64,000 nt of DNA from a bacterium (GTDB lineage: Bacteria; J088; JAWLBW01), in assembly GCA_041690355.1 (NCBI GenBank), contig JAWLHK010000016.1:1-64000 (forward strand). The letters are read 5' to 3'. Positions within the stretch are counted from its first letter, which is position 1. The number at the start of each line of letters is the position of its first letter. Position numbers and translations under genes: made by a program. Positions 35,564 to 44,107 of this stretch are shown piece after piece. Below the pieces are notes generated by a model, which did not search any database, had not been told where the DNA came from, and saw nothing but the letters and a program-made list of their open reading frames with translations.

Positions 35564-36399
35564 ACGTCCACCAGCTCAATGGGGTCGACGGGGCGGCCCA
35601 GGAAACGGGCGCCCACCTCGGCGAACCGCGGCGACACGTCGGTCAGCAGATACCGCGTCGTCGCGGGCGAGCCGGCCGAGAGCAGCTTGCGCCCGGTCAG
35701 CAATCCGGCCACCGCTTCAGCCGTCGTGCGGGCCGAATCGACCAGCGTGACCCCCGGGAGCACCCGCGCGATGGCCGGCATCAGCAGCGGATAGTGCGTG
35801 CACCCGAGAATCGCCGTGTCGATGCCGCTGCCGGCCAGCCGCTGCAGATAACGCTGCGCCGCCAGGTCGGCGATGGGGTCATCCCCCAGCCCCTCTTCCG
35901 CGAGCGGAACGAAGAGCGGGCACGCCTGCTCCTCGATGACGACTCCGGGGGGAACTTCCGCGCCCGCGCCCGCCGCGGGGGACGTCAGGGCGGCGTCCTG
36001 CTGCTCGAGGGCGCGGCGGTAGGCGCCCGAGCGGATGGTACCCTCGGTCGCGAGCACGGCGATGTGCCGCCGCGGGCTCGCCGCCAGCGCGGCCTCGGCC
36101 CCCGGTTCCACCACGCCCACCAGGGGAAGATCGGGATACCGCTCGCGCAGGGCGTCCATGGCGTGGGCCGACGCCGTATTGCACGCGACGACCAGCATCT
36201 TGATCCCCCCGCGCACGAGATGGTCGGCCACGCGCAGCGAATAGCGGATGACCGTCTCGGGGCTCTTGGTGCCGTAGGGAACCCGCGCGGTATCCCCCAG
36301 ATAGAGAAAGCTTTCCGCAGGCAGGCGCGCGTGGAGGGCGCGCAGGACGGTGAGTCCGCCGATGCCGGAGTCGAAGATGCCGATGGGAAGTTCGTTCAT
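35560..36399 (-). CDS. murI: glutamate racemase
   Basis: FDSGIGGLTV, VPYG, VACNTA, LGCTHYP. Confidence 0.97.
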   Translation of the reverse strand: MNELPIGIFDSGIGGLTVLRALHARLPAESFLYLGDTARVPYGTKSPETVIRYSLRVADHLVRGGIKMLVVACNTASAHAMDALRERYPDLPLVGVVEPGAEAALAASPRRHIAVLATEGTIRSGAYRRALEQQDAALTSPAAGAGAEVPPGVVIEEQACPLFVPLAEEGLGDDPIADLAAQRYLQRLAGSGIDTAILGCTHYPLLMPAIARVLPGVTLVDSARTTAEAVAGLLTGRKLLSAGSPATTRYLLTDVSPRFAEVGARFLGRPVDPIELVDV

Positions 36400-36483: not shown

Positions 36484-36604
36484 TTCGTCCCGAGCTGACG
36501 GCGCGTAACAGAGTGAGCGCGACAGCGAGGGGATACGCACGGGTATCCGGGCGCAGTCTCGCCGTCGCCGTTTGCGCTGCTGCCGGCCGTCGGCTCGACA
36601 CGAA
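36484..36604. other. about 120-nt rod-like imperfect hairpin (ncRNA or REP/MITE-like)
   Basis: Nested stems 36484-88/36600-04, 36491-502/36586-97, 36519-29/36558-68, 36531-36/36543-48. Confidence 0.6.
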
Positions 36605-36612
36605 TGGAAATG

Positions 36613-36710
36613 GACTTCCGGCTCCCGGCTGATGACTCTCGACTCCCGACTCTCGACTCATGACTGAGGACTGCCGACTGATGACTGAAGACTGAAGACT
36701 GCTGACTGGA
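36613..36710. repeat. 14 tandem heptamers GRCTnnn
   Basis: GACTTCC GGCTCCC GGCTGAT GACTCTC GACTCCC GACTCTC GACTCAT GACTGAG GACTGCC GACTGAT GACTGAA GACTGAA GACTGCT GACTGGA. Confidence 0.9.
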
Positions 36711-36739
36711 AACCGCCCGTTTGGTAGGATGTCAGGCGC

Positions 36740-37123
36740 ATGTCGTTTCTCTTCCGCGTCTTCTGGAATGCGCTCGGCCTGGTCATCGCCGCGACCCTCG
36801 TCTCCTCCGTGAGCTTCGAGTCTCCAGTCTCGGTGGGGCTGGCCGCCTTCGGACTCGGCGTCGTGAACGCCCTGATCCGCCCGGTGCTCTTCTTTCTGAC
36901 CCTGCCGCTGACCATCCTCACGCTGGGCCTGTTCACGCTCGTGCTCAACGCCCTCATGGTCTGGCTGATCGACGGGCTCGTGCCCGGCTTCAACCTGCAC
37001 GGCTTCTGGGACGCCTTCTGGACCGCGCTCATCGTCAGCATCGTCAGCTTCTTCGGCTCGCTCATTGCCGGCCGCTCTCGCCCCCGCCCCATGGAGATCG
37101 ATTCCCATGATCGAAACCTTTGA
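36740..37123 (+). CDS. 4-TM YvlD / phage holin family IV membrane protein
   Basis: GVVNALIRPVL...TLPLTILTLGLF.LVLNA signature. Confidence 0.9.
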   Translation: MSFLFRVFWNALGLVIAATLVSSVSFESPVSVGLAAFGLGVVNALIRPVLFFLTLPLTILTLGLFTLVLNALMVWLIDGLVPGFNLHGFWDAFWTALIVSIVSFFGSLIAGRSRPRPMEIDSHDRNL

Positions 37124-39839
37124 ACAGCTTCTCGACCTGCAGCAGACCCTGCGCAAACGCCAGACCGACCGCGCCGCCTTTGTCGCGCCGGATTACGCGA
37201 AGCTCCGTTTCAAACTGGGCACAAGCCTTGCCGAAACCCGGGTGCCGCTCGGGTTCTCGGCCGAGCTCGAGAAGACCCTCGACCTGGCGCCGCGTTCGCT
37301 GTACACGGCCGTCCTCATGCGCCACCGCAATGAACTGAGCCCGGCCGATCTCGACGCCGTACTGCTCGACACCTCGAGCATGGCCGTCCAGGATCTGCCT
37401 CCCGAGAGCTGGTATCTGGGCGACGTGCCGCACGACTCGGTCTTCTACCGGATCTTCACGCGCACGATGCGGCAGAACCGTCTGCTCGACGCCGCCCTGC
37501 TCTTCTGGTGGTTCGCCAAGGATCGCCCGGGCCGCCAGCTGCTGAACGACCTCAAGCTGTTTCTGCAGAAGCTCGCCCACGAAGAGAAGGAGCGCGGCAA
37601 CGGCGAAGAGACCGTGCGTCTCGGCATGACGGCCGTGATGCTGCGCTGGCACGCCTTCAAGAGCCCGATCAGCGAGAAGACGACCGGGCCGCTGATCCAG
37701 CAGGCCTACTCGGCCACTGCCGTCGTCCTCTACGAAACGCTGCGCGCCGTGCTGGAGGACCATTATGGAGCGCTCGGCATCAAGGACCGGCCGATGGGAG
37801 ACGACGCGGCGGTCTCGTATCAGGGCTTCATGGTCCCCTTCTCGCCGCTTGCCATCGCAACGGCGTCCCTGAAGATCACCGGTGACGCCGTGAACCCGTT
37901 CGGCATCTCGAACCGCACGGCCGACACGCTGGAACGCTTCTTTCCGCGCATGATCGAGCGCAGCACCCCCGTCGACGAAATCCAGCGTCAGATCGCCGCG
38001 AAGATCGCGGGCGACAAACAGGCCCCGGGCCTGATTCTTGCGGAAGTGCGCCGCCAGCGAATTCTGGAGGGCATCCTCCAGCTCGTTACGGCCATCAAGG
38101 CGGCCGACAAGGAGACCCCCGAAGCAAAGATTCTCGAGGAGCTGCACGCCATCCGCACGAACCCGGATGGCTTTCTGCCCGCGCTCGACGACAAGAAGCA
38201 GTTCAAGGACTGGTCGGAGAAGTGGAAGCGAATGAGCACCGTCGCGGCGCTGCGCCCGCAGCTCGACGCCTTTCACGATCTGGCCGCCGCGCTCGTCAAG
38301 CTGTCACCGGGGCTGCTCAGCGACAAAAAGGCGCTCGAGGCTGCCTTCGCCGAGCACGCGAAACGCTTCGTGCTGCTGCGGCATTCCGAAGCGTGGAACG
38401 AGGCCCTCGCCGGTACCGGCACGGCCTTTCAGCTTCTCGATTCAGGCGCGCTGGCCGAGGCCTGGGCGCAGGGGCGCGCCTACCGGCTGGGCTACGACGA
38501 GAAGCCGCTCCTGCAGGACTCCTTCGTCGCCTCGGAGGGACAGTTCTTCATCGACCTGAAGGACTTCACCAAGCGCACCTACAGCAGCAAGGAAGTCGCC
38601 ATGGCCGACTTCATGAAGCACGAGTTTTACGAGCCGATTCTCGCCGTCGCCAAGGAATACCAGGTTGGCATGCGGCACATCGATCGGTCGGGCATCTCGA
38701 TCAACAACCTGCTCGGCGATGCGGTCTCGGCGAGCGGCGACATGCTCTCGCTGTTCAACTTTTCAAAAGAACTCTTCGCCATTATCCGCGGCTACCGCGA
38801 AAAGCTGCGCGCCCGCATTCCCGAGGCGCTCGTGCGCGAGAAGGTTGCGGCGCTGCAGAAGCGGCATGACACGCAGCGCGCCGCGCTGCTGGCCGAGCGC
38901 AACCGGCTGCTCACGACCATTCAGAAGCTGACGGCCGACTACAAGGCCATGCCGGCGCAGGATCCGAAGCGCGCGGCCACGGGGGCCCAGCTGCGCGGCT
39001 ATCAGGAAAGCTTCGCCACGGTCGACCGGCAGGTCCGAGAACTCCAACTGGAATTCGCGGATGAGAAGGGGCTGCTCGAGGGAACCGGCCTCGAAGCCGG
39101 CGCCTACATTGCGTGGGGCACGGCCGCCGAAATGATCGTCTTCCGCGACGAGGTCTTCGGGCCGCTCAAGGTCGCCATCGGCGAGAAGATCAACGAGAGC
39201 GCCCGCGGCACGGCCCGCGACGGCGGCGTGCGCAGCCAGCTCGAACACGTACTCGCGCGCCAGCGCGTCGAGAAGAAGAATCCCTCGCTCGCGTACCCGT
39301 TCAGCGCCTATGTCGATGACAGCGTGCAGCTGGATCTGGAGCCTGACCTCGAGGACCTGCTGCGCAAAGCGATCGCCGCCAAGGACGCCGACGGCGTGAA
39401 GCGCATGGTGCAGAGCCTGAGCCAGCGGCTCGTCAACGACCTCGTGCCCGGCCTCAAGAAGAATCCGCCCGAATTCCGCACGCTGCGGCTCGGCAACGGC
39501 ATCTACAACCTCGGGCTCGCGCTGAGCGGCGATGCCGTCGATGCCCTGTGCAAGGCGGTCGAGGGGTCGCGGGCGGTCCAGCGCCGCACGCTCAAGGTCG
39601 AGGAGTTTCACCCCGAAATCGGGCGCCGCTTCGCCTTCCCGAAGCCGGCCTACGAGTTCGTGATTCTCAATGCCCCCGAAGCGGGCCAGCCCGCCGACGT
39701 CTTCGTCGCCCTGGGCTCGATGGTCTTCAAGGGGTTCGAGAAGATGGATCCCCAGACGATTTACGTCTATGCGGAACCGGAATCGGCCTTCTACCAGGCG
39801 TTCGCGAAGCACCACCTGGCCGAGCCGGCCGCCGGCTGA
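37107..39839 (+). CDS. 910-aa protein with a C-terminal class III nucleotide cyclase-like domain interrupted by helical inserts
   Basis: FFIDLKDFT, NLLGDA, GEKINESAR, LALSGDA; start overlaps the yvlD-like gene. Confidence 0.7.
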   Translation: MIETFEQLLDLQQTLRKRQTDRAAFVAPDYAKLRFKLGTSLAETRVPLGFSAELEKTLDLAPRSLYTAVLMRHRNELSPADLDAVLLDTSSMAVQDLPPESWYLGDVPHDSVFYRIFTRTMRQNRLLDAALLFWWFAKDRPGRQLLNDLKLFLQKLAHEEKERGNGEETVRLGMTAVMLRWHAFKSPISEKTTGPLIQQAYSATAVVLYETLRAVLEDHYGALGIKDRPMGDDAAVSYQGFMVPFSPLAIATASLKITGDAVNPFGISNRTADTLERFFPRMIERSTPVDEIQRQIAAKIAGDKQAPGLILAEVRRQRILEGILQLVTAIKAADKETPEAKILEELHAIRTNPDGFLPALDDKKQFKDWSEKWKRMSTVAALRPQLDAFHDLAAALVKLSPGLLSDKKALEAAFAEHAKRFVLLRHSEAWNEALAGTGTAFQLLDSGALAEAWAQGRAYRLGYDEKPLLQDSFVASEGQFFIDLKDFTKRTYSSKEVAMADFMKHEFYEPILAVAKEYQVGMRHIDRSGISINNLLGDAVSASGDMLSLFNFSKELFAIIRGYREKLRARIPEALVREKVAALQKRHDTQRAALLAERNRLLTTIQKLTADYKAMPAQDPKRAATGAQLRGYQESFATVDRQVRELQLEFADEKGLLEGTGLEAGAYIAWGTAAEMIVFRDEVFGPLKVAIGEKINESARGTARDGGVRSQLEHVLARQRVEKKNPSLAYPFSAYVDDSVQLDLEPDLEDLLRKAIAAKDADGVKRMVQSLSQRLVNDLVPGLKKNPPEFRTLRLGNGIYNLGLALSGDAVDALCKAVEGSRAVQRRTLKVEEFHPEIGRRFAFPKPAYEFVILNAPEAGQPADVFVALGSMVFKGFEKMDPQTIYVYAEPESAFYQAFAKHHLAEPAAG

Positions 39840-39883
39840 CCGGCGCCCGTCGCCGGACTTCCCCCAGGCGCGCCCGAAGCGCC

Positions 39884-40939
39884 TCAGGCCAGCGCGGGGA
39901 CGTACCGGCCGAACAGGCGCAGGTCGGCGAGCGAGGCGTGCCTTTGCAGGTTCTCGCGCACGTAGCCGAGCGTGCGGGGAATGTCGGCCAGGAACTTGGG
40001 GTTGCCCTTGACCTGGTCGATGTAATCGAAGCGGCCGGCCGCCTTCAGGTTGCGCTGCACGCTCACCAGATCGAACATCTCGCGGAACTCGTCGGCCCCC
40101 CACGTGCCGATGCCGGCATCGACGGCCCCCAGCCGGTAGCGCTCGACAAGGCGGTCGACGATGGGATCGCCCACCGCGATGTAGCTGTCGCGCAGCAGCG
40201 AGGCCAGGTCGTACGGGGCGGCCCCCGTCAAGGCGTCCTGGAAGTCAATCAGGTACAACCGGTCGTCCTGCAGCATCAGGTTCCGGCTGTGATAGTCGCG
40301 ATGCACGAGCACGGGGGTCATGGTTGCGATGCGCTCGCTCAGCCGGCGGAATGCGGCATCGAGGCGTTCCCGGTCGGCGGGGTCTACGACGATCCCCTTC
40401 TTCTCGATGGCGTATTCGAGAAAGTGGTGGAATTCCCAGTGGAACAGGTCGGCGTCGAAGCGGCGTCGGAACCCGAGAAAGTCCCCGGCCCCCGTCTCGC
40501 GCAGCCCGGCCCGCTGGAACGCGAGCAGCGTATCGACCGCCTCGGTGTAAAGCTTCTCCCGCCCCGCCTCATCGAGCGGCGTTGCCCGGTCGAGCAGGGT
40601 CTCATCCCCGAGGTCTGAAAGCAGCAGGATACCCTCGCGCACCCCGTCGTAAAACAGCTTCGGCGCAGGGAGCTCGTTCCGCTCCAGAAAACGCAGGACG
40701 TTGAGGAACGGCAACTCACGTATCTCATCGATATCACTGCCGATTTCCTCAGCCGACCGGTGCGGATCGTTGTCGGCGAGCACCATGGCGATGGCGCTGT
40801 TGCCGCCCCCCTGGATACGGTAGTAGGAGCGGTTCGAGGCGTCGCCGGGCAGGCGGATTACCGCCACGTCGGCAACGTCGGCGACAGTCGCGCGAAACAG
40901 GCTCTGCAGCCTCGATTCCAGGTCGGACACGGGGGTCAC
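39884..40939 (-). CDS. amgK: anomeric MurNAc/GlcNAc kinase (APH family)
   Basis: LPGDASNRSYYR, LSDLGD, HRDYHSRNLM, IDFQDA, YDLASLLRD, QRNLKAAG. Confidence 0.8.
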   Translation of the reverse strand: MTPVSDLESRLQSLFRATVADVADVAVIRLPGDASNRSYYRIQGGGNSAIAMVLADNDPHRSAEEIGSDIDEIRELPFLNVLRFLERNELPAPKLFYDGVREGILLLSDLGDETLLDRATPLDEAGREKLYTEAVDTLLAFQRAGLRETGAGDFLGFRRRFDADLFHWEFHHFLEYAIEKKGIVVDPADRERLDAAFRRLSERIATMTPVLVHRDYHSRNLMLQDDRLYLIDFQDALTGAAPYDLASLLRDSYIAVGDPIVDRLVERYRLGAVDAGIGTWGADEFREMFDLVSVQRNLKAAGRFDYIDQVKGNPKFLADIPRTLGYVRENLQRHASLADLRLFGRYVPALA

Positions 40940-41885: not shown

Positions 41886-42509
41886 TCACGTGAAGCTCAG
41901 GGGGGGCTTGCCTTCGGCTTCGAGCGCGTACCGGCGGTAGGCGTCGAGGGTGTTCAGGTTGACGAAGGTCTTCAGATCGGGGTCGACGCGCAGCACCTTG
42001 TCTTCGCTGACTTCCTTGACCCGGATCTCGGGGAACAGCTTGGCAAGGTCGTATTCCTTGCGCGCCAGCAGGCGATCGACCGCGCGCAGCACGTCGCGGC
42101 GGAACAGGGCGGGCATCGGCACCAGCGTGCCGTCGATGCGGAATGCGACCGCCTGGACTTTCGGATCCCAGTTCTCGAGCAGCAGCTGGATGACCGCCGG
42201 TTTGATGAACGGCATGTCGCAGGCCAGCAGCAGCAGCCCCTCTTGCCGCAGCCCCAGCAGCGCCGTCTCGAACCCGGCAATCGGGCCGACGTCAGACCGC
42301 TGGTCCACGTCGAGCGGCACACCAAGATGCTTGTAGTCCTTGAGCACCGGCGCCACGATCTGCACGTCGTTCGTCAGCTCGCGGGCGCGATCGATGACGT
42401 GCATGACCATCGGACGATCGCCGATGGGCAGCAGGGCCTTGTCCTTGCCGCCGGCGCGGCGCGTGGGTCCGCCGGCCAGCACGGCGGCGGTAATCGAGGG
42501 CTGCGTCAT
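41886..42509 (-). CDS. mobA: molybdenum cofactor guanylyltransferase
   Basis: [33 protein letters not shown]. Confidence 0.88.
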
Positions 42510-43827
42510 GCTGCTTTCCTCATGAGCCAGGCAGAAAGGTCCTGCATCGCGCGGTCGGCCAGCGCCTGTTTGCGGCGGTCGCGGGGGAGTCGAACCGAGA
42601 GCGGTTCCATGATTCCGAAATTTGCGTTCATGGGCTGAAAATACCGGGGGTCGCTTTCTGTCAGGTGTCGAATCAGACCGCCGAGCGCGGTGGTCGCCGG
42701 CGGGGGCGCATAGTCTTCGCCGCGCAGCCGGGCCCAGACGGCCAGCGCAGCCAGCAATCCGCTTGCCGCCGATTCCACATACCCCTCGACGCCGGTGACC
42801 TGGCCGGCAAAGAAGATCCCTTCCGCGCCCTTCAGCTCCTGCGCCGGCGTCAGCAGGCGGGGCGCGTTCAGAAACGTATTGCGGTGCAGGCTCCCCAGCC
42901 GCACGAATTCCGCATTTTCGAGCCCCGGAATCATGCGGAAGATCCGTTTCTGCTCGGGATAGGTGAGCTTCGTCTGAAAGCCCACCAGATTCCACAGCTG
43001 CCCGTGCTTGTCTTCGCGCCGCAGCTGGACGACCGCATAGGGACGCTTGCCCGTGCGCGGATCCTCGAGCCCCACGGGCTTCATCGGCCCGAAGGCGAGC
43101 GTCAACGGACCCCGTTCGGCCATGTCTTCGATGGGCATGCAGCCTTCGAACGGGCGCAGATTTTCGAATTCCTTGTAGGCGACCTTCTGCCCGGCGAGCA
43201 GCTCCGCGACGAATGCCTCGTACTGCGCCTGGTCCATCGGGCAGTTGAGGTAATCGTCTCCGCCCCCTTTTCCGTAGCGGCTCGCCGCGAACACGATGTT
43301 GCGGTCGATGCTTTCGCCGTCGATGATGGGCGCGATGGCGTCATAAAACGCGAGCGTCTCGTCAGAGCCGAAGTGGCGCTGCAGATCGCCGGCGAGCGCA
43401 TCGGACGTGAGCGGACCCGTGGCCACGATGAGCGGCCGGTCTTCGGGGAGCGCCGTCACTTCACCGCGAACGAAGGTGACGTTGGGATGCGTTTCGAGGG
43501 CCTGGGTCACGGCCGCGCTGAAAACGTTGCGGTCGACGGCAAGCGCGCCGCCGGCGGGCACGGCGGCGCCGCGCCCCTGGGCGATGATCAGACTCTCGAG
43601 CCGCTCCATCTCGCGCTTGAGCAGTCCGATGGCCTGCGTCGGCTCGTCGCCGCGGAAGGAATTCGAGCAGACGAGTTCGGCGCACGCACCGCTNNNNNNN
43701 NNNTCTTGTGCGCGGGGGTCAGGCGAACAGGCCGCTGTTCGTGAACGGTCACCTGTACGCCGCGCCGCGCGAGCTGCCATGCGGCCTCGGAACCCGCGAG
43801 GCCTGCGCCGATGATTGCTGCTTTCAT
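42506..43827 (-). CDS. trmFO: tRNA (uracil-5)-methyltransferase, FADH2-dependent (split by an assembly gap)
   Basis: [47 protein letters not shown]. Confidence 0.95.
43694..43703. other. scaffold gap (10 N)
   Basis: Run of N inside trmFO. Confidence 1.
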
Positions 43828-44107
43828 TTGCCTTCAGAACACGAAGAAAAAAAGAGCGGGGACTCCAGCGAACCCCGCACAAACCCTGACTTAGTTTCGC
43901 TTGCTGAAAACGACGTTGTCAAGCGCGCACCCCCGCTGCGGATTGCGGGCAGCGACGCGCAACGAAATGGATTGTAACGACATGCGAAGGCATCCTCAAG
44001 CCGACCCCTGAAACGGCGCCCGGGCCCACGAAAAAGTCTGCCCCTTGCTCCCTGCCGCATGGTAGAATCAGAGCCATTGTCCAGATTCCAGATCCCGGAG
44101 GAACCGC

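What the first reader, a model, noticed from the sequence alone, without database searches (positions are those of the whole stretch)
36740..39839. 4-TM membrane protein coupled to a large class III cyclase-like enzyme with non-canonical base specificity
Seen: all four catalytic residues of class III cyclases are present in order: Asp (FIDLKDFT, codon 38553), Asp (LLGDA, 38718), and Asn and Arg (GEKINESAR, 39192 and 39204). By manual alignment the specificity positions are Asn and Val, not Lys/Asp(Thr) (adenylyl) or Glu/Cys (guanylyl). The domain is split by a coiled-coil of about 100 aa and a second helical insert, and is preceded by about 480 aa of unknown helical domain. Its start overlaps a holin-family 4-TM gene by 17 nt. 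Known: Pycsar pairs altered-specificity class III cyclases with TM effectors. Inference: an undescribed second-messenger system for defence or housekeeping signalling. Caveat: YvlD is widespread and the context is not a defence island.
Basis: partly seen in the sequence, partly recalled or inferred. Interest (0 to 1): 0.78.

Follow-up and report, generated by a model that had tools for sequence, protein, structure and literature searches.

The report
Unnamed split class III cyclase family
A 910-residue protein with no database name has the fold and catalytic residues of an adenylyl/guanylyl-type cyclase, but nothing supports the small membrane gene in front of it being a dedicated partner or the pair being a phage-defence system.

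Summary
Window 36740-37123 (+) encodes a 127-aa PF04020 (YvlD / Phage_holin_4_2) protein. Window 37107-39839 (+) encodes a 910-aa protein, and the two genes overlap by 17 nt. The large protein has no Pfam, NCBIfam, PADLOC or PDB sequence match. A template-free AlphaFold2 model (pLDDT 84.9) puts residues 472-897 on class III cyclase domains (Z 15.3, rmsd 3.0 A, 178 of 195 residues of P. aeruginosa CyaB). The top 21 of 48,161 PDB representatives are all class III cyclases. Profile comparison with the genome's own nine PF00211 domains gives E 1.2e-5; 30 shuffles gave 0.059 or worse. D483, D538, N696 and R700 are kept in 101-110 of 110 full-length homologues. The base-specifying positions are Asn534 and Val689. 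The domain is split by an ~88-aa helical hairpin and preceded by a 445-aa helical domain with no recognisable fold.

The Pycsar-like reading is not supported. YvlD has no cyclic-nucleotide-binding domain. The linkage is seen only in the window's own clade, whose one available relative shares synteny over 10 kb. None of the 77 other loci has it. The neighbours are housekeeping genes.

Verdict: an unannotated variant of class III cyclase. Its product is unknown, and dimerisation was not tested.

The parts
36740..37123 (+). yvlD-like gene, 127 aa (P0002), PF04020 Phage_holin_4_2. It is strongly hydrophobic over residues 2-111.
   Evidence: Pfam E 6.7e-30, profile positions 1-105 of 105. Kyte-Doolittle 19-aa windows of 1.6 or more span 2-26, 28-84 and 91-111. 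It is the only copy in the genome.
37093..37096 (+). GGAG, a Shine-Dalgarno-like motif 10 nt before the ATG of the large gene and inside the end of yvlD
   Evidence: Read from the sequence. Not tested further.
37107..39839 (+). Gene for the 910-aa cyclase-like protein (P0001), stop codon included. It overlaps yvlD by 17 nt.
   Evidence: The start is supported by the homologues' N-termini. It is a single copy in the genome. No 19-aa window exceeds a hydropathy of 1.22, so no TM segment is predicted.
37107..38441 (+). N-terminal all-helical domain, residues 1-445, specific to the family. Conserved residues include R34, G38, P47, W135, G142, R143, E167 and T169.
   Evidence: AF2 models (the domain alone gives pLDDT 81.6, pTM 0.83). 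No clear PDB match: Foldseek best E 0.14, VIA-align wide best Z 7.5. The Atlas gave no usable named hit.
38520..38816 (+). First half of the cyclase homology domain, residues 472-570: beta1 with D483, a long alpha1, beta2-beta3 with N534 and D538, then alpha2
   Evidence: hhalign against the 9 own-genome PF00211 domains gave prob 81%, E 1.2e-5, with shuffle controls. Structural matches start at model residue 472.
38817..39086 (+). Antiparallel helical hairpin (coiled-coil) insert, residues 571-660. Its median length in the family is 75 residues; it is 90 in the window and in L006.
   Evidence: H573-614 and H620-658 in the model. It matches only generic helical hairpins (Z 10-11).
39087..39797 (+). 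Second half of the cyclase homology domain, residues 661-897: the beta4-beta5 arm, V689, the alpha4 helix with N696 and R700, a second helical insert (about residues 743-790, window 39333-39476), a conserved YN.G.A.S motif (800-807), and FKGFE (874-878)
   Evidence: Structural alignments end at 889-901.
38553..38555 (+). Codon of D483, the first metal-binding Asp (FIDLKDFT)
   Evidence: Asp in 110 of 110 full-length homologues. Aligned to the Asp of FsDIrGFT.
38706..38708 (+). Codon of N534, at the position of the adenine-specifying Lys (4 residues before the second Asp)
   Evidence: N in 94 of 110, S in 8. hhalign aligns it to the Lys of dKxIGDA.
38718..38720 (+). Codon of D538, the second metal-binding Asp (NNLLGDA)
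   Evidence: Asp in 105 of 110. hhalign.
39171..39173 (+). Codon of V689, at the position of the second base-specifying residue (Asp/Thr in adenylyl cyclases), 7 residues before N696
   Evidence: V in 96 of 110, I in 10. Assigned by register only; hhalign placed a gap here.
39192..39206 (+). Codons of N696 to R700 (N-E-S-A-R), the transition-state Asn and Arg
   Evidence: N in 101 of 110; R in 103 of 110 plus K in 3. Aligned to GDtVNtAsR in the full C-terminal hhalign.

Best explanation
P0001 is a soluble, stand-alone and very divergent class III nucleotidyl cyclase.

Shown:
- Residues 472-897 adopt the cyclase homology domain fold.
- The two metal-binding Asp (D483, D538) and the transition-state Asn and Arg (N696, R700) are present and conserved across the family.
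- The domain is interrupted by an ~88-residue helical hairpin after alpha2 and by a second helical insert after alpha4.
- A 445-residue helical domain of no recognisable fold precedes it.

Inferred by analogy with solved bacterial class III cyclases:
- Two chains form a head-to-tail dimer. Each active site is built from the Asp pair of one chain and from N534, V689, N696 and R700 of the other.
- The enzyme converts an NTP into a 3',5'-cyclic NMP plus pyrophosphate with two divalent cations.
- The N-terminal domain and the hairpin act as the regulatory or sensor part that controls how the dimer packs.

The product base cannot be read from the sequence, because the two classical specifying positions are Asn and Val rather than Lys/Asp(Thr) or Glu/Cys.

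The yvlD gene in front is most likely a lineage-specific operon neighbour, a widespread small membrane protein, and not a messenger-gated effector. The family is a housekeeping signalling enzyme of Myxococcota- and Thermodesulfobacteriota-type bacteria and of the window's small phylum. It is not a defence system.
For: Fold.
- The AF2 model was built without templates (pLDDT 84.9).
- Foldseek's best rows are almost all class III cyclases (best 1wc0_A, E 4.2e-3, prob 1.00).
- VIA-align second look: 3r5g_A Z 15.3, rmsd 3.0, 178 of 195 residues aligned, model range 473-897; all 50 rows shown are class III cyclases.
- The independent search of 48,161 representatives put class III cyclases in ranks 1-21 (Z 15.2 to 11.1). 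These include the Pycsar cyclases 8jsz_B (Z 12.6), 7r65_A (11.8) and 8jsf_B (11.5).

Sequence.
- hhalign of residues 465-570 against the 9 PF00211 domains of the same genome gave prob 81%, E 1.2e-5.
- Residues 445-910 gave prob 56%, E 1.1e-4. The alignment matches F.D..[DG]FT, GDA and N..AR in register.
- 30 column shuffles gave E 0.059 or worse.
- Spacings N534-D538 = 4, V689-N696 = 7 and N696-R700 = 4 equal K296-D300, D365-N372 and N372-R376 of Rv1625c (PMC4174876, passages).

Conservation in 110 homologues of 700 aa or more: D483 110, D538 105, N696 101, R700 103 (+3 K), K/R875 103.

Atlas: 8 of 30 feature hits fall in clusters where some members carry PF00211 (28% in the cluster shown); the other 22 are unnamed.

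Stand-alone and housekeeping character.
- No TM segment is predicted.
- Neighbours in other loci lie mostly on the opposite strand and are P-II, glutamine synthetase, PP-loop/ThiI-like enzymes, creatininase and ZnuA.
- The window's neighbours are MurI, a thioredoxin-like protein, TetR, acyl-CoA dehydrogenase, an APH-type kinase, SprT-like and MobA-like proteins.
- The genome has 9 canonical cyclases and 16 cNMP-binding domain matches, none on the window's contig.
Against: - The Pfam PF00211 model does not match at E <= 1.
- Neither phmmer nor a family profile finds any cyclase in PDB sequences.
- Foldseek E-values (4e-3) fall short of that tool's own 1e-3 line.
- hhalign probabilities are only 56-81%.
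- The fold rests on a predicted model, not a solved structure.
- The dimer, a defining feature, was not tested, because the complex tool never accepted the job.
- No activity data exist.
- Asn/Val at the specifying positions and extra invariant motifs (G456/Y459, Y800-N801-G803-A805-S807) are not features of characterised cyclases, so the chemistry could differ.
- The yvlD overlap and its apparent persistence in 4 of 7 testable close relatives leave some room for a functional tie.
Confidence: 0.6

Rival explanations
1. This is a two-gene messenger module. The cyclase makes a non-canonical nucleotide that gates or activates the YvlD 4-TM protein, in the way Pycsar cyclases act on TM effectors, for defence or envelope signalling.
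For: - There is a 17-nt stop/start overlap with a GGAG 10 nt before the ATG, so co-transcription and possibly translational coupling are likely.
- yvlD also lies directly upstream in the close relative L006, with a 22-nt gap.
- Pycsar systems do use TM effectors (PMC11224242, passages).
Against: - P0002 is 127 aa and is filled by PF04020, with no cNMP-binding domain. PMC11224242 describes the Pycsar partner as a receptor protein and documents a CNBD for PycTIR. That PycTM also carries one is my recollection, not read here.
- PADLOC gives no hit for either protein at E <= 1.
- None of the 77 other loci has a YvlD-like gene by tblastn at E <= 10, apart from 8-17-residue chance pieces.
- The same-phylum homologue L004 has a different upstream gene. 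By eye it looks like a histidine-biosynthesis HisIE-type protein; it was not scanned.
- L006 shares the whole 10-kb gene order, so its adjacency is inherited synteny.
- PF04020 is found in 6 of 14 control genomes of unrelated phyla. The cyclase family was confirmed at only 153 stretches among 185,579 species genomes.
- No defence genes lie nearby.
Confidence: 0.1
2. It is an ordinary adenylyl cyclase. Despite Asn/Val at the specifying positions the product is cAMP, and the protein is one more input into an already large cAMP network.
For: - The closest structures are adenylyl and guanylyl cyclases (Z 15.3-14.3), ahead of the pyrimidine cyclases (Z 12.6-11.5).
- The genome holds 9 canonical cyclases and 16 cNMP-binding domain matches.
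- From memory, not checked in any call: some mycobacterial adenylyl cyclases with non-canonical residues at these positions still make mainly cAMP.
Against: - N534 (94 of 110) and V689 (96 of 110, plus 10 Ile) are conserved as strongly as the catalytic residues, which suggests selection for a particular substrate pocket.
- In Pycsar cyclases base choice is set by residues that differ from clade to clade (PMC11224242, passages). Fold similarity therefore does not predict the base.
Confidence: 0.35
3. The cyclase-fold domain does something other than cyclise NTPs: a nucleotide-binding sensor, a pseudo-enzyme scaffold, or another nucleotidyl-transfer reaction.
For: - No PF00211 match.
- Two large inserts are present.
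- Invariant motifs outside the canonical set: G456/Y459, Y800 N801 G803 A805 S807, and E887 in 108 of 110.
- A hydrophobic Val sits where canonical enzymes have a hydrogen-bonding residue.
Against: All four catalytic positions and the Lys/Arg of the C-terminal FKGFE strand are kept in 92-100% of 110 homologues. That pattern is not expected of a pseudo-enzyme.
Confidence: 0.12

Closest known systems
Bacterial class III adenylyl/guanylyl cyclase catalytic domains (for example P. aeruginosa CyaB 3r5g, Spirulina CyaC 1wc0-1wc6, Synechocystis Cya2 2w01, M. tuberculosis Rv1900c 1ybt/1ybu)
   Same: - The palm fold aligns over nearly the whole domain (Z 15.3-13.8, rmsd 2.8-3.4 A, 159-181 residues).
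- The two Asp, the Asn and the Arg are in the same order and spacing.
- A C-terminal Lys/Arg-Gly strand is present (FKGFE against vKGK).
   Different: - There is no PF00211 HMM match.
- Asn/Val replace Lys/Asp(Thr) or Glu/Cys.
- Alpha1 is longer: D483-D538 spans 55 residues against 44 for D256-D300 in Rv1625c.
- An ~88-residue helical hairpin is inserted after alpha2, and a second helical insert follows alpha4.
- A 445-residue N-terminal domain of unknown fold is attached.
- Dimerisation was not tested.
[quoted passage not shown]
   Same: The cyclase has the class III fold with altered base-pocket residues. PycC structures match the model at Z 12.6-11.5. A small membrane-protein gene sits next to the cyclase gene in the window.
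   Different: - The neighbour has no cyclic-nucleotide-binding domain.
- PADLOC finds neither protein.
- The pairing is absent from the other 77 loci.
- The cyclase is 910 aa with a large sensor-like domain, whereas the PycC chains matched are 229-259 residues.
- The context is housekeeping genes.
DUF2652 nucleotide-cyclase-like proteins (Ramakrishnan et al. 2016, PMC4886424; abstract and outline seen)
   Same: This is another set of cytosolic bacterial proteins recognised only by remote homology as class III cyclase relatives.
   Different: It is a different family. P0001 gives no Pfam match other than a sub-threshold DUF349 row. The taxa named in that abstract are Actinobacteria, Bacteroidetes and Proteobacteria.
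YvlD / PF04020 (Phage_holin_4_2) small membrane proteins
   Same: P0002 matches the full profile. 1634 homologues scored E <= 1e-10, and those with a name are called 'putative membrane protein' or 'phage holin family protein'.
   Different: Nothing distinguishes P0002 from the family. No experimentally established function was seen in any call. One listing places B. subtilis yvlD in a paper on the sigma-W regulon (PMC3498285, listing only).

Membership tests
Class III nucleotidyl cyclase (cyclase homology domain) | [quoted passage not shown] | tested here: met
   Predicted model only. Z 15.3, rmsd 3.0 A, 178 of 195 residues of 3r5g_A. Ranks 1-21 of 48,161 representatives are class III cyclases.
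Class III nucleotidyl cyclase (cyclase homology domain) | Two metal-binding aspartates (beta1 and beta2-beta3) | tested here: met
   D483 in 110 of 110 and D538 in 105 of 110 homologues. Both align to the cyclase Asp residues by hhalign.
Class III nucleotidyl cyclase (cyclase homology domain) | Transition-state Asn and Arg on alpha4, four residues apart | tested here: met
   N696 in 101 of 110 and R700 in 103 of 110. The spacing equals N372-R376 of Rv1625c.
Class III nucleotidyl cyclase (cyclase homology domain) | Match to the curated family model PF00211 above its gathering score | tested here: not met
   No PF00211 row at E <= 1. The same model finds 9 domains elsewhere in this genome.
Class III nucleotidyl cyclase (cyclase homology domain) | Head-to-tail dimer with active sites at the interface | not tested
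   The complex-prediction job (residues 445-910, two copies) was never accepted. The queue was full, and one search gave no usable answer.
Class III nucleotidyl cyclase (cyclase homology domain) | Formation of 3',5'-cNMP and pyrophosphate from NTP | not testable with these tools
   Needs an enzyme assay.
Adenylyl- or guanylyl-specific class III cyclase | Lys + Asp/Thr (adenine) or Glu + Cys/Ser (guanine) at the two base-specifying positions | tested here: not met
   N534 (N 94, S 8 of 110) and V689 (V 96, I 10 of 110). The V689 position is assigned by register only.
Pycsar | Adjacent receptor/effector protein (PycTM or PycTIR). A cyclic-nucleotide-binding domain is documented for PycTIR in PMC11224242; for PycTM it is recalled, not read here. 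| tested here: not met
   P0002 is 127 aa, and residues 1-105 are PF04020 with no other Pfam row. None of the 16 PF00027 matches in the genome is on the window's contig.
Pycsar | Recognition of cyclase or effector by defence-system models | tested here: not met
   PADLOC gave 0 families for either protein at E <= 1. PADLOC-DB dates from 2023, so newer offshoots are not covered.
Pycsar | Cyclase-effector pairing conserved across homologues | tested here: not met
   YvlD was found only beside the window gene and its one close genome relative among 83 loci. An apparent same-contig co-occurrence exists in 4 of 7 testable close metagenomic relatives.
Pycsar | Protection against phage | not testable with these tools
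   Needs a phage challenge.
PF04020 Phage_holin_4_2 / YvlD (for P0002) | Full-length match to the family model; four hydrophobic segments | tested here: met
   104.2 bits against a cut-off of 28.8, profile positions 1-105 of 105. Hydropathy shows continuous hydrophobic stretches at 2-26, 28-84 and 91-111. The count of four helices follows the family name and was not resolved here.
GGDEF diguanylate cyclase (the other palm-fold nucleotide cyclase) | GG[DE]EF active-site motif and a PF00990 match | tested here: inconclusive
   No PF00990 row at E <= 1. I read no GG[DE]EF motif in the sequence. No GGDEF chain appears among the 50 rows shown, which does not exclude a lower-ranked match.

The most novel reading that the evidence does not exclude
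The family is a dedicated synthase of a nucleotide messenger other than cAMP or cGMP, such as a cyclic pyrimidine or another NTP-derived product. Its base pocket would be defined by the conserved Asn534/Val689 pair. The messenger would serve housekeeping signalling, not defence, in Myxococcota, Thermodesulfobacteriota and the window's small phylum, and would be controlled by a 445-residue sensor domain of a fold not yet seen. In the window's clade the output could feed into the co-transcribed YvlD membrane protein.
Probability: 0.15. Interest if true: 0.8.

Novelty: new variant of a known kind. Interest (0 to 1): 0.45.

Why it matters
Class III cyclases are among the best-studied signalling enzymes. 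Even so, this family escapes the curated Pfam, NCBIfam and PADLOC models. It has 182 clusters at 50% identity among 1.84 billion proteins and 153 confirmed stretches in 185,579 species genomes, and wherever a source names it, the name is 'hypothetical protein'.

The family adds three things:
- It shows that the catalytic domain tolerates an ~88-residue hairpin in the middle of the fold.
- It offers a new large regulatory domain.
- It carries a conserved, non-canonical pair at the base-specifying positions, which makes it a concrete candidate for testing whether cyclic nucleotides other than cAMP and cGMP are used outside phage defence.

The work also corrects a tempting over-reading. A membrane-protein gene overlapping a cyclase gene is not by itself a Pycsar-like system.

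Tried and rejected
Sequence-only routes
- Pfam, NCBIfam and PADLOC gave nothing for P0001.
- phmmer and a family profile against PDB sequences gave only chance coiled-coil rows.

N-terminal domain
- Foldseek's best E was 0.14.
- VIA-align wide's best was Z 7.5, rmsd 8.5, 137 residues aligned on a Piezo1 helical region. That is within the noise the tool quotes for helical proteins.
- The Atlas gave no usable named hit.
- No known fold can be assigned. This does not show that the fold is new.

Homodimer
The last call gave no usable answer. Dimerisation is untested.

Expression
- No sequencing run was listed for window 36600-39900: 'none was listed', with no RNA holder listed.

Contigs of the close relatives
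- Two metagenome scans gave nothing or only two distant loci, L093 and L094.
- Linkage in P0003-P0011 could therefore be judged only indirectly, from equal contig lengths.
- P0003, P0006 and P0010 had no matching YvlD among the 120 rows listed of 1634. P0008 and P0011 are untestable.

Promoters and terminators
- 0 promoter-like sites were found, and 2 terminator-like sites against 2.9 expected. This is uninformative.

Conservation count on frames from the loci
- It gave lower figures (D483 in 69 of 81).
- The 12 exceptions: 10 frames carry none of the three family motifs, evidently picked in the wrong frame by my script. One more (L031) matched only a short GD[AST] pattern and is probably also a wrong or partial frame. 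L073 is cut by its contig end.
- I rely on the 110 database proteins instead.

Tree
- The first build did not finish. The FastTree version includes those wrong frames as a spurious 10-row clade.
- It is midpoint-rooted without an outgroup, so I use it for only two statements. The window and L006 pair together (support 100). They sit in a 35-row set (support 100) with the Thermodesulfobacteriota / 'Deltaproteobacteria' groundwater rows.

Literature
- Searches for a prior description found none of this family: (terms on class III cyclases, coiled-coil insertion, Myxococc*, cyclase homology domain, helical hairpin).
- The nearest was the DUF2652 paper, which concerns another family.
- A 'find' in PMC2447327 returned no text.
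- The statement about non-canonical mycobacterial cyclases is from memory.
- No supplements were opened.

Earlier findings of this scan: nothing on record.

Full report
**1. What is there**

Window 36740-37123 (+) is a 127-codon ORF. A long frame follows on the same strand and ends at 39839. Its ATG at 37107 gives a 910-residue protein, P0001, whose first residues match the N-termini of the homologues. The two genes therefore overlap by 17 nt, and a GGAG lies 10 nt before the ATG.

The small protein, P0002, matches Pfam PF04020 (Phage_holin_4_2, the YvlD family) over the whole profile at E 6.7e-30. It is the only copy in the genome.

P0001 has no match in Pfam (only a sub-threshold DUF349 row), NCBIfam or PADLOC. 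It has none in PDB sequences, either as a single sequence or as a family profile. No TM segment is predicted.

**2. It is a real, rare, unnamed family**

- A word-indexed search of 5.8 billion proteins found 29 proteins including the query. They are 793-920 aa long, none has a Pfam domain, and those with a name are called 'hypothetical protein'.
- An exhaustive HMMER pass over 1.84 billion cluster representatives found 182 at E <= 1e-3 and 97 at E <= 1e-30.
- In one genome per species of GTDB, 153 stretches were confirmed, and 78 distinct loci were kept.
- By my hand count of that table, 72 of 78 record titles name Deltaproteobacteria, Myxococcales, Myxococcaceae, Anaeromyxobacter or Thermodesulfobacteriota. 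Six say only 'bacterium'. All are MAGs. Two MAGs carry two loci each.
- Among the window's 40 nearest genomes the family is found in the one genome of the same family and in 2 of 3 genomes of a second family of the same phylum. It is found in none of the 36 genomes outside the phylum.

**3. The C-terminal half is a class III cyclase domain**

*Sequence.* The genome has nine canonical PF00211 domains. I aligned them and compared the profile with the family profile.
- Residues 465-570 give probability 81% and E 1.2e-5. FIDLKDFT falls on FsDIrGFT, and NNLLGDA falls on dKxIGDA.
- Residues 445-910 give probability 56% and E 1.1e-4, and additionally place GEKINESAR on GDtVNtAsR and FKGFE on vKGK.
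- Thirty column shuffles of the cyclase profile never scored above 16.8 (E 0.059 or worse), against a real score of 37.4. The reversed profile scored 11.8.

*Structure.* A template-free AlphaFold2 model built from the 29-sequence alignment has mean pLDDT 84.9.
- Foldseek's list is almost wholly class III cyclases, although its best E-value (4.2e-3) misses the tool's own 1e-3 line.
- VIA-align gives Z 15.3, rmsd 3.0 A and 178 of 195 residues for P. aeruginosa CyaB, spanning model residues 473-897. All 50 rows shown are cyclases.
- The search that does not depend on Foldseek, over 48,161 representatives, puts class III cyclases in ranks 1-21. Adenylyl and guanylyl cyclases (Z 15.2-13.0) come ahead of the Pycsar uridylate and cytidylate cyclases (Z 12.6, 11.8, 11.5). 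The next rows are generic helical hairpins that match only residues 571-660.

*Conservation.* Among 110 homologues of 700 aa or more:

| Position | Role | Residue counts (of 110) |
|---|---|---|
| 483 | metal-binding Asp | D 110 |
| 538 | metal-binding Asp | D 105 |
| 696 | transition-state Asn | N 101 |
| 700 | transition-state Arg | R 103, K 3 |
| 875 | FKGFE strand | K or R 103 |

The spacings match those of Rv1625c residues K296/D300 and D365/N372/R376 (PMC4174876, passages read).

**4. How it departs from known cyclases**

- The position of the adenine-specifying Lys is N534 (N 94, S 8 of 110).
- The position of the second specifying residue is V689 (V 96, I 10 of 110). V689 is placed by register only, because hhalign opened a gap there.
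- Alpha2 runs into an antiparallel helical hairpin (H573-614, H620-658) before beta4.
- A second helical insert (H746-757, H761-784) follows alpha4. The hairpin has a median length of 75 residues in the family and is 90 in the window.
- Further invariant motifs have no canonical counterpart that I know of: G456/Y459, and Y800-N801-G803-A805-S807.
- Residues 1-445 form an all-helical domain. Modelled alone (pLDDT 81.6, pTM 0.83), it has no clear structural relative: Foldseek best E 0.14, VIA-align best Z 7.5. The Atlas gives no named lead.

**5. The 4-TM gene is not a conserved partner**

- A tblastn with P0002 over all 83 loci then held hit only the window itself and L003/L006. Those two are the same contig of the one same-family genome (59% identity). 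None of the other 77 loci was hit.
- L006 shares the window's gene order across the whole fetched stretch: acyl-CoA dehydrogenase, TetR, thioredoxin-like, MurI, YvlD, cyclase, APH-type kinase, MobA-like, TrmFO-like (the last named by eye, not scanned). The SprT-like gene of the window was not looked for there. The adjacency is therefore part of inherited synteny. In L006 the two genes are separated by 22 nt instead of overlapping.
- In a same-phylum, other-family genome the upstream gene is different (read by eye).
- In the rest of the family the gene is usually flanked by opposite-strand housekeeping genes. P-II is found in 21 and glutamine synthetase in 19 of 81 loci, and a PP-loop enzyme lies downstream in 18. 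Others are ThiI-like, creatininase and ZnuA.
- The same-strand upstream clusters lie a median of 560-2780 nt away. By eye they look like antisense shadows of those genes. I did not verify this.

The pair thus seems to persist in 4 of 7 testable relatives at 45-51% identity. The other three had no match among the 120 rows listed of 1634, and two more could not be tested.

Three points count against an effector role:
- YvlD has no room for a cyclic-nucleotide-binding domain. PMC11224242 describes Pycsar partners as receptor proteins and shows such a domain for PycTIR (passages). That PycTM has one too is recalled, not read here.
- PADLOC sees nothing.
- PF04020 occurs in 6 of 14 unrelated control genomes.

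**6. Mechanism**

The fold, the catalytic residues and the architecture are shown. The rest is inferred from solved homodimeric bacterial cyclases:
- A head-to-tail dimer forms with two composite active sites.
- Two-metal catalysis converts an NTP to a 3',5'-cNMP and pyrophosphate.
- The N-terminal domain and the hairpin regulate activity by setting the geometry of the dimer.

The dimer could not be tested, because the complex tool never accepted the job. The product cannot be read from sequence. In Pycsar cyclases the base-selecting residues differ between clades (PMC11224242, passages). The closest structures here are purine cyclases.

The host has a large cyclic-nucleotide network, with 9 canonical cyclases and 16 cNMP-binding domain matches. 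One more cAMP source is therefore the default expectation. The strict conservation of Asn/Val keeps another product open.

**7. Verdict**

The cyclase assignment is well supported. The 'system' with the TM protein is not.

The protein is a new, unannotated variant of a known enzyme class, and its context is housekeeping rather than defence. I found no prior description. No supplements were read.

Interest is moderate. It rests on the non-canonical conserved base pocket, the split domain and the unknown sensor domain. A simple LC-MS assay would settle whether the product is ordinary.

Noticed in passing
window 36632-36708 (intergenic, between the murI start at 36399 on the minus strand and the yvlD start at 36740): About 11 tandem copies of a 7-nt unit (GACTSNN, mostly GACTGAN) lie here (TRF). 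The same heptamer array is dispersed through the genome. A 19-nt pattern with at most 1 mismatch occurs 128 times (69 forward, 59 reverse), against 0 and 1 for the backwards control. My script counts 68 arrays of 21-84 nt. It is absent from the syntenic site of the relative L006.
   Followed up: partly
G000 C4:12407-12448, C5:108087-108121, C6:187779-187806 (outside the window): Three of the 68 heptamer arrays lie 3-14 nt after the stop codons of three paralogous canonical class III cyclase genes: C4:12455-13948, C5:108124-110655 and C6:187820-189433, all on the minus strand. That is 3 of the genome's 9 canonical cyclases. Only about 3% of genes are expected to flank an array. The arrays may have been copied together with the paralogues, or they may be a 3' regulatory element. 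The comparison is post hoc.
   Followed up: partly
G000 C5:107594-107851 (outside the window): A cNMP-binding-domain gene lies just downstream of the canonical cyclase C5:108124-110655, with a heptamer array between them. This may be a cyclase-receptor pair.
   Followed up: no
window 42506-43882 (minus strand): The TrmFO-like ORF contains a run of X in translation, which corresponds to masked or N bases near 43700. It is a withheld or unassembled stretch and not a feature.
   Followed up: no
L042 and L046 (one MAG); L067 and L072 (another MAG): Two genomes carry two loci of the cyclase family each. L042 and L046 sit on very long branches in the tree (1.58 and 2.68). However, the frame used for L046 lacks all the family motifs and was probably picked wrongly.
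   Followed up: no
L008-L034 and related Myxococcales loci: In 19-21 of 81 loci the cyclase gene lies divergently next to glnB (P-II) and glnA. These loci probably belong to one clade with shared synteny. No link to nitrogen signalling was tested.
   Followed up: no
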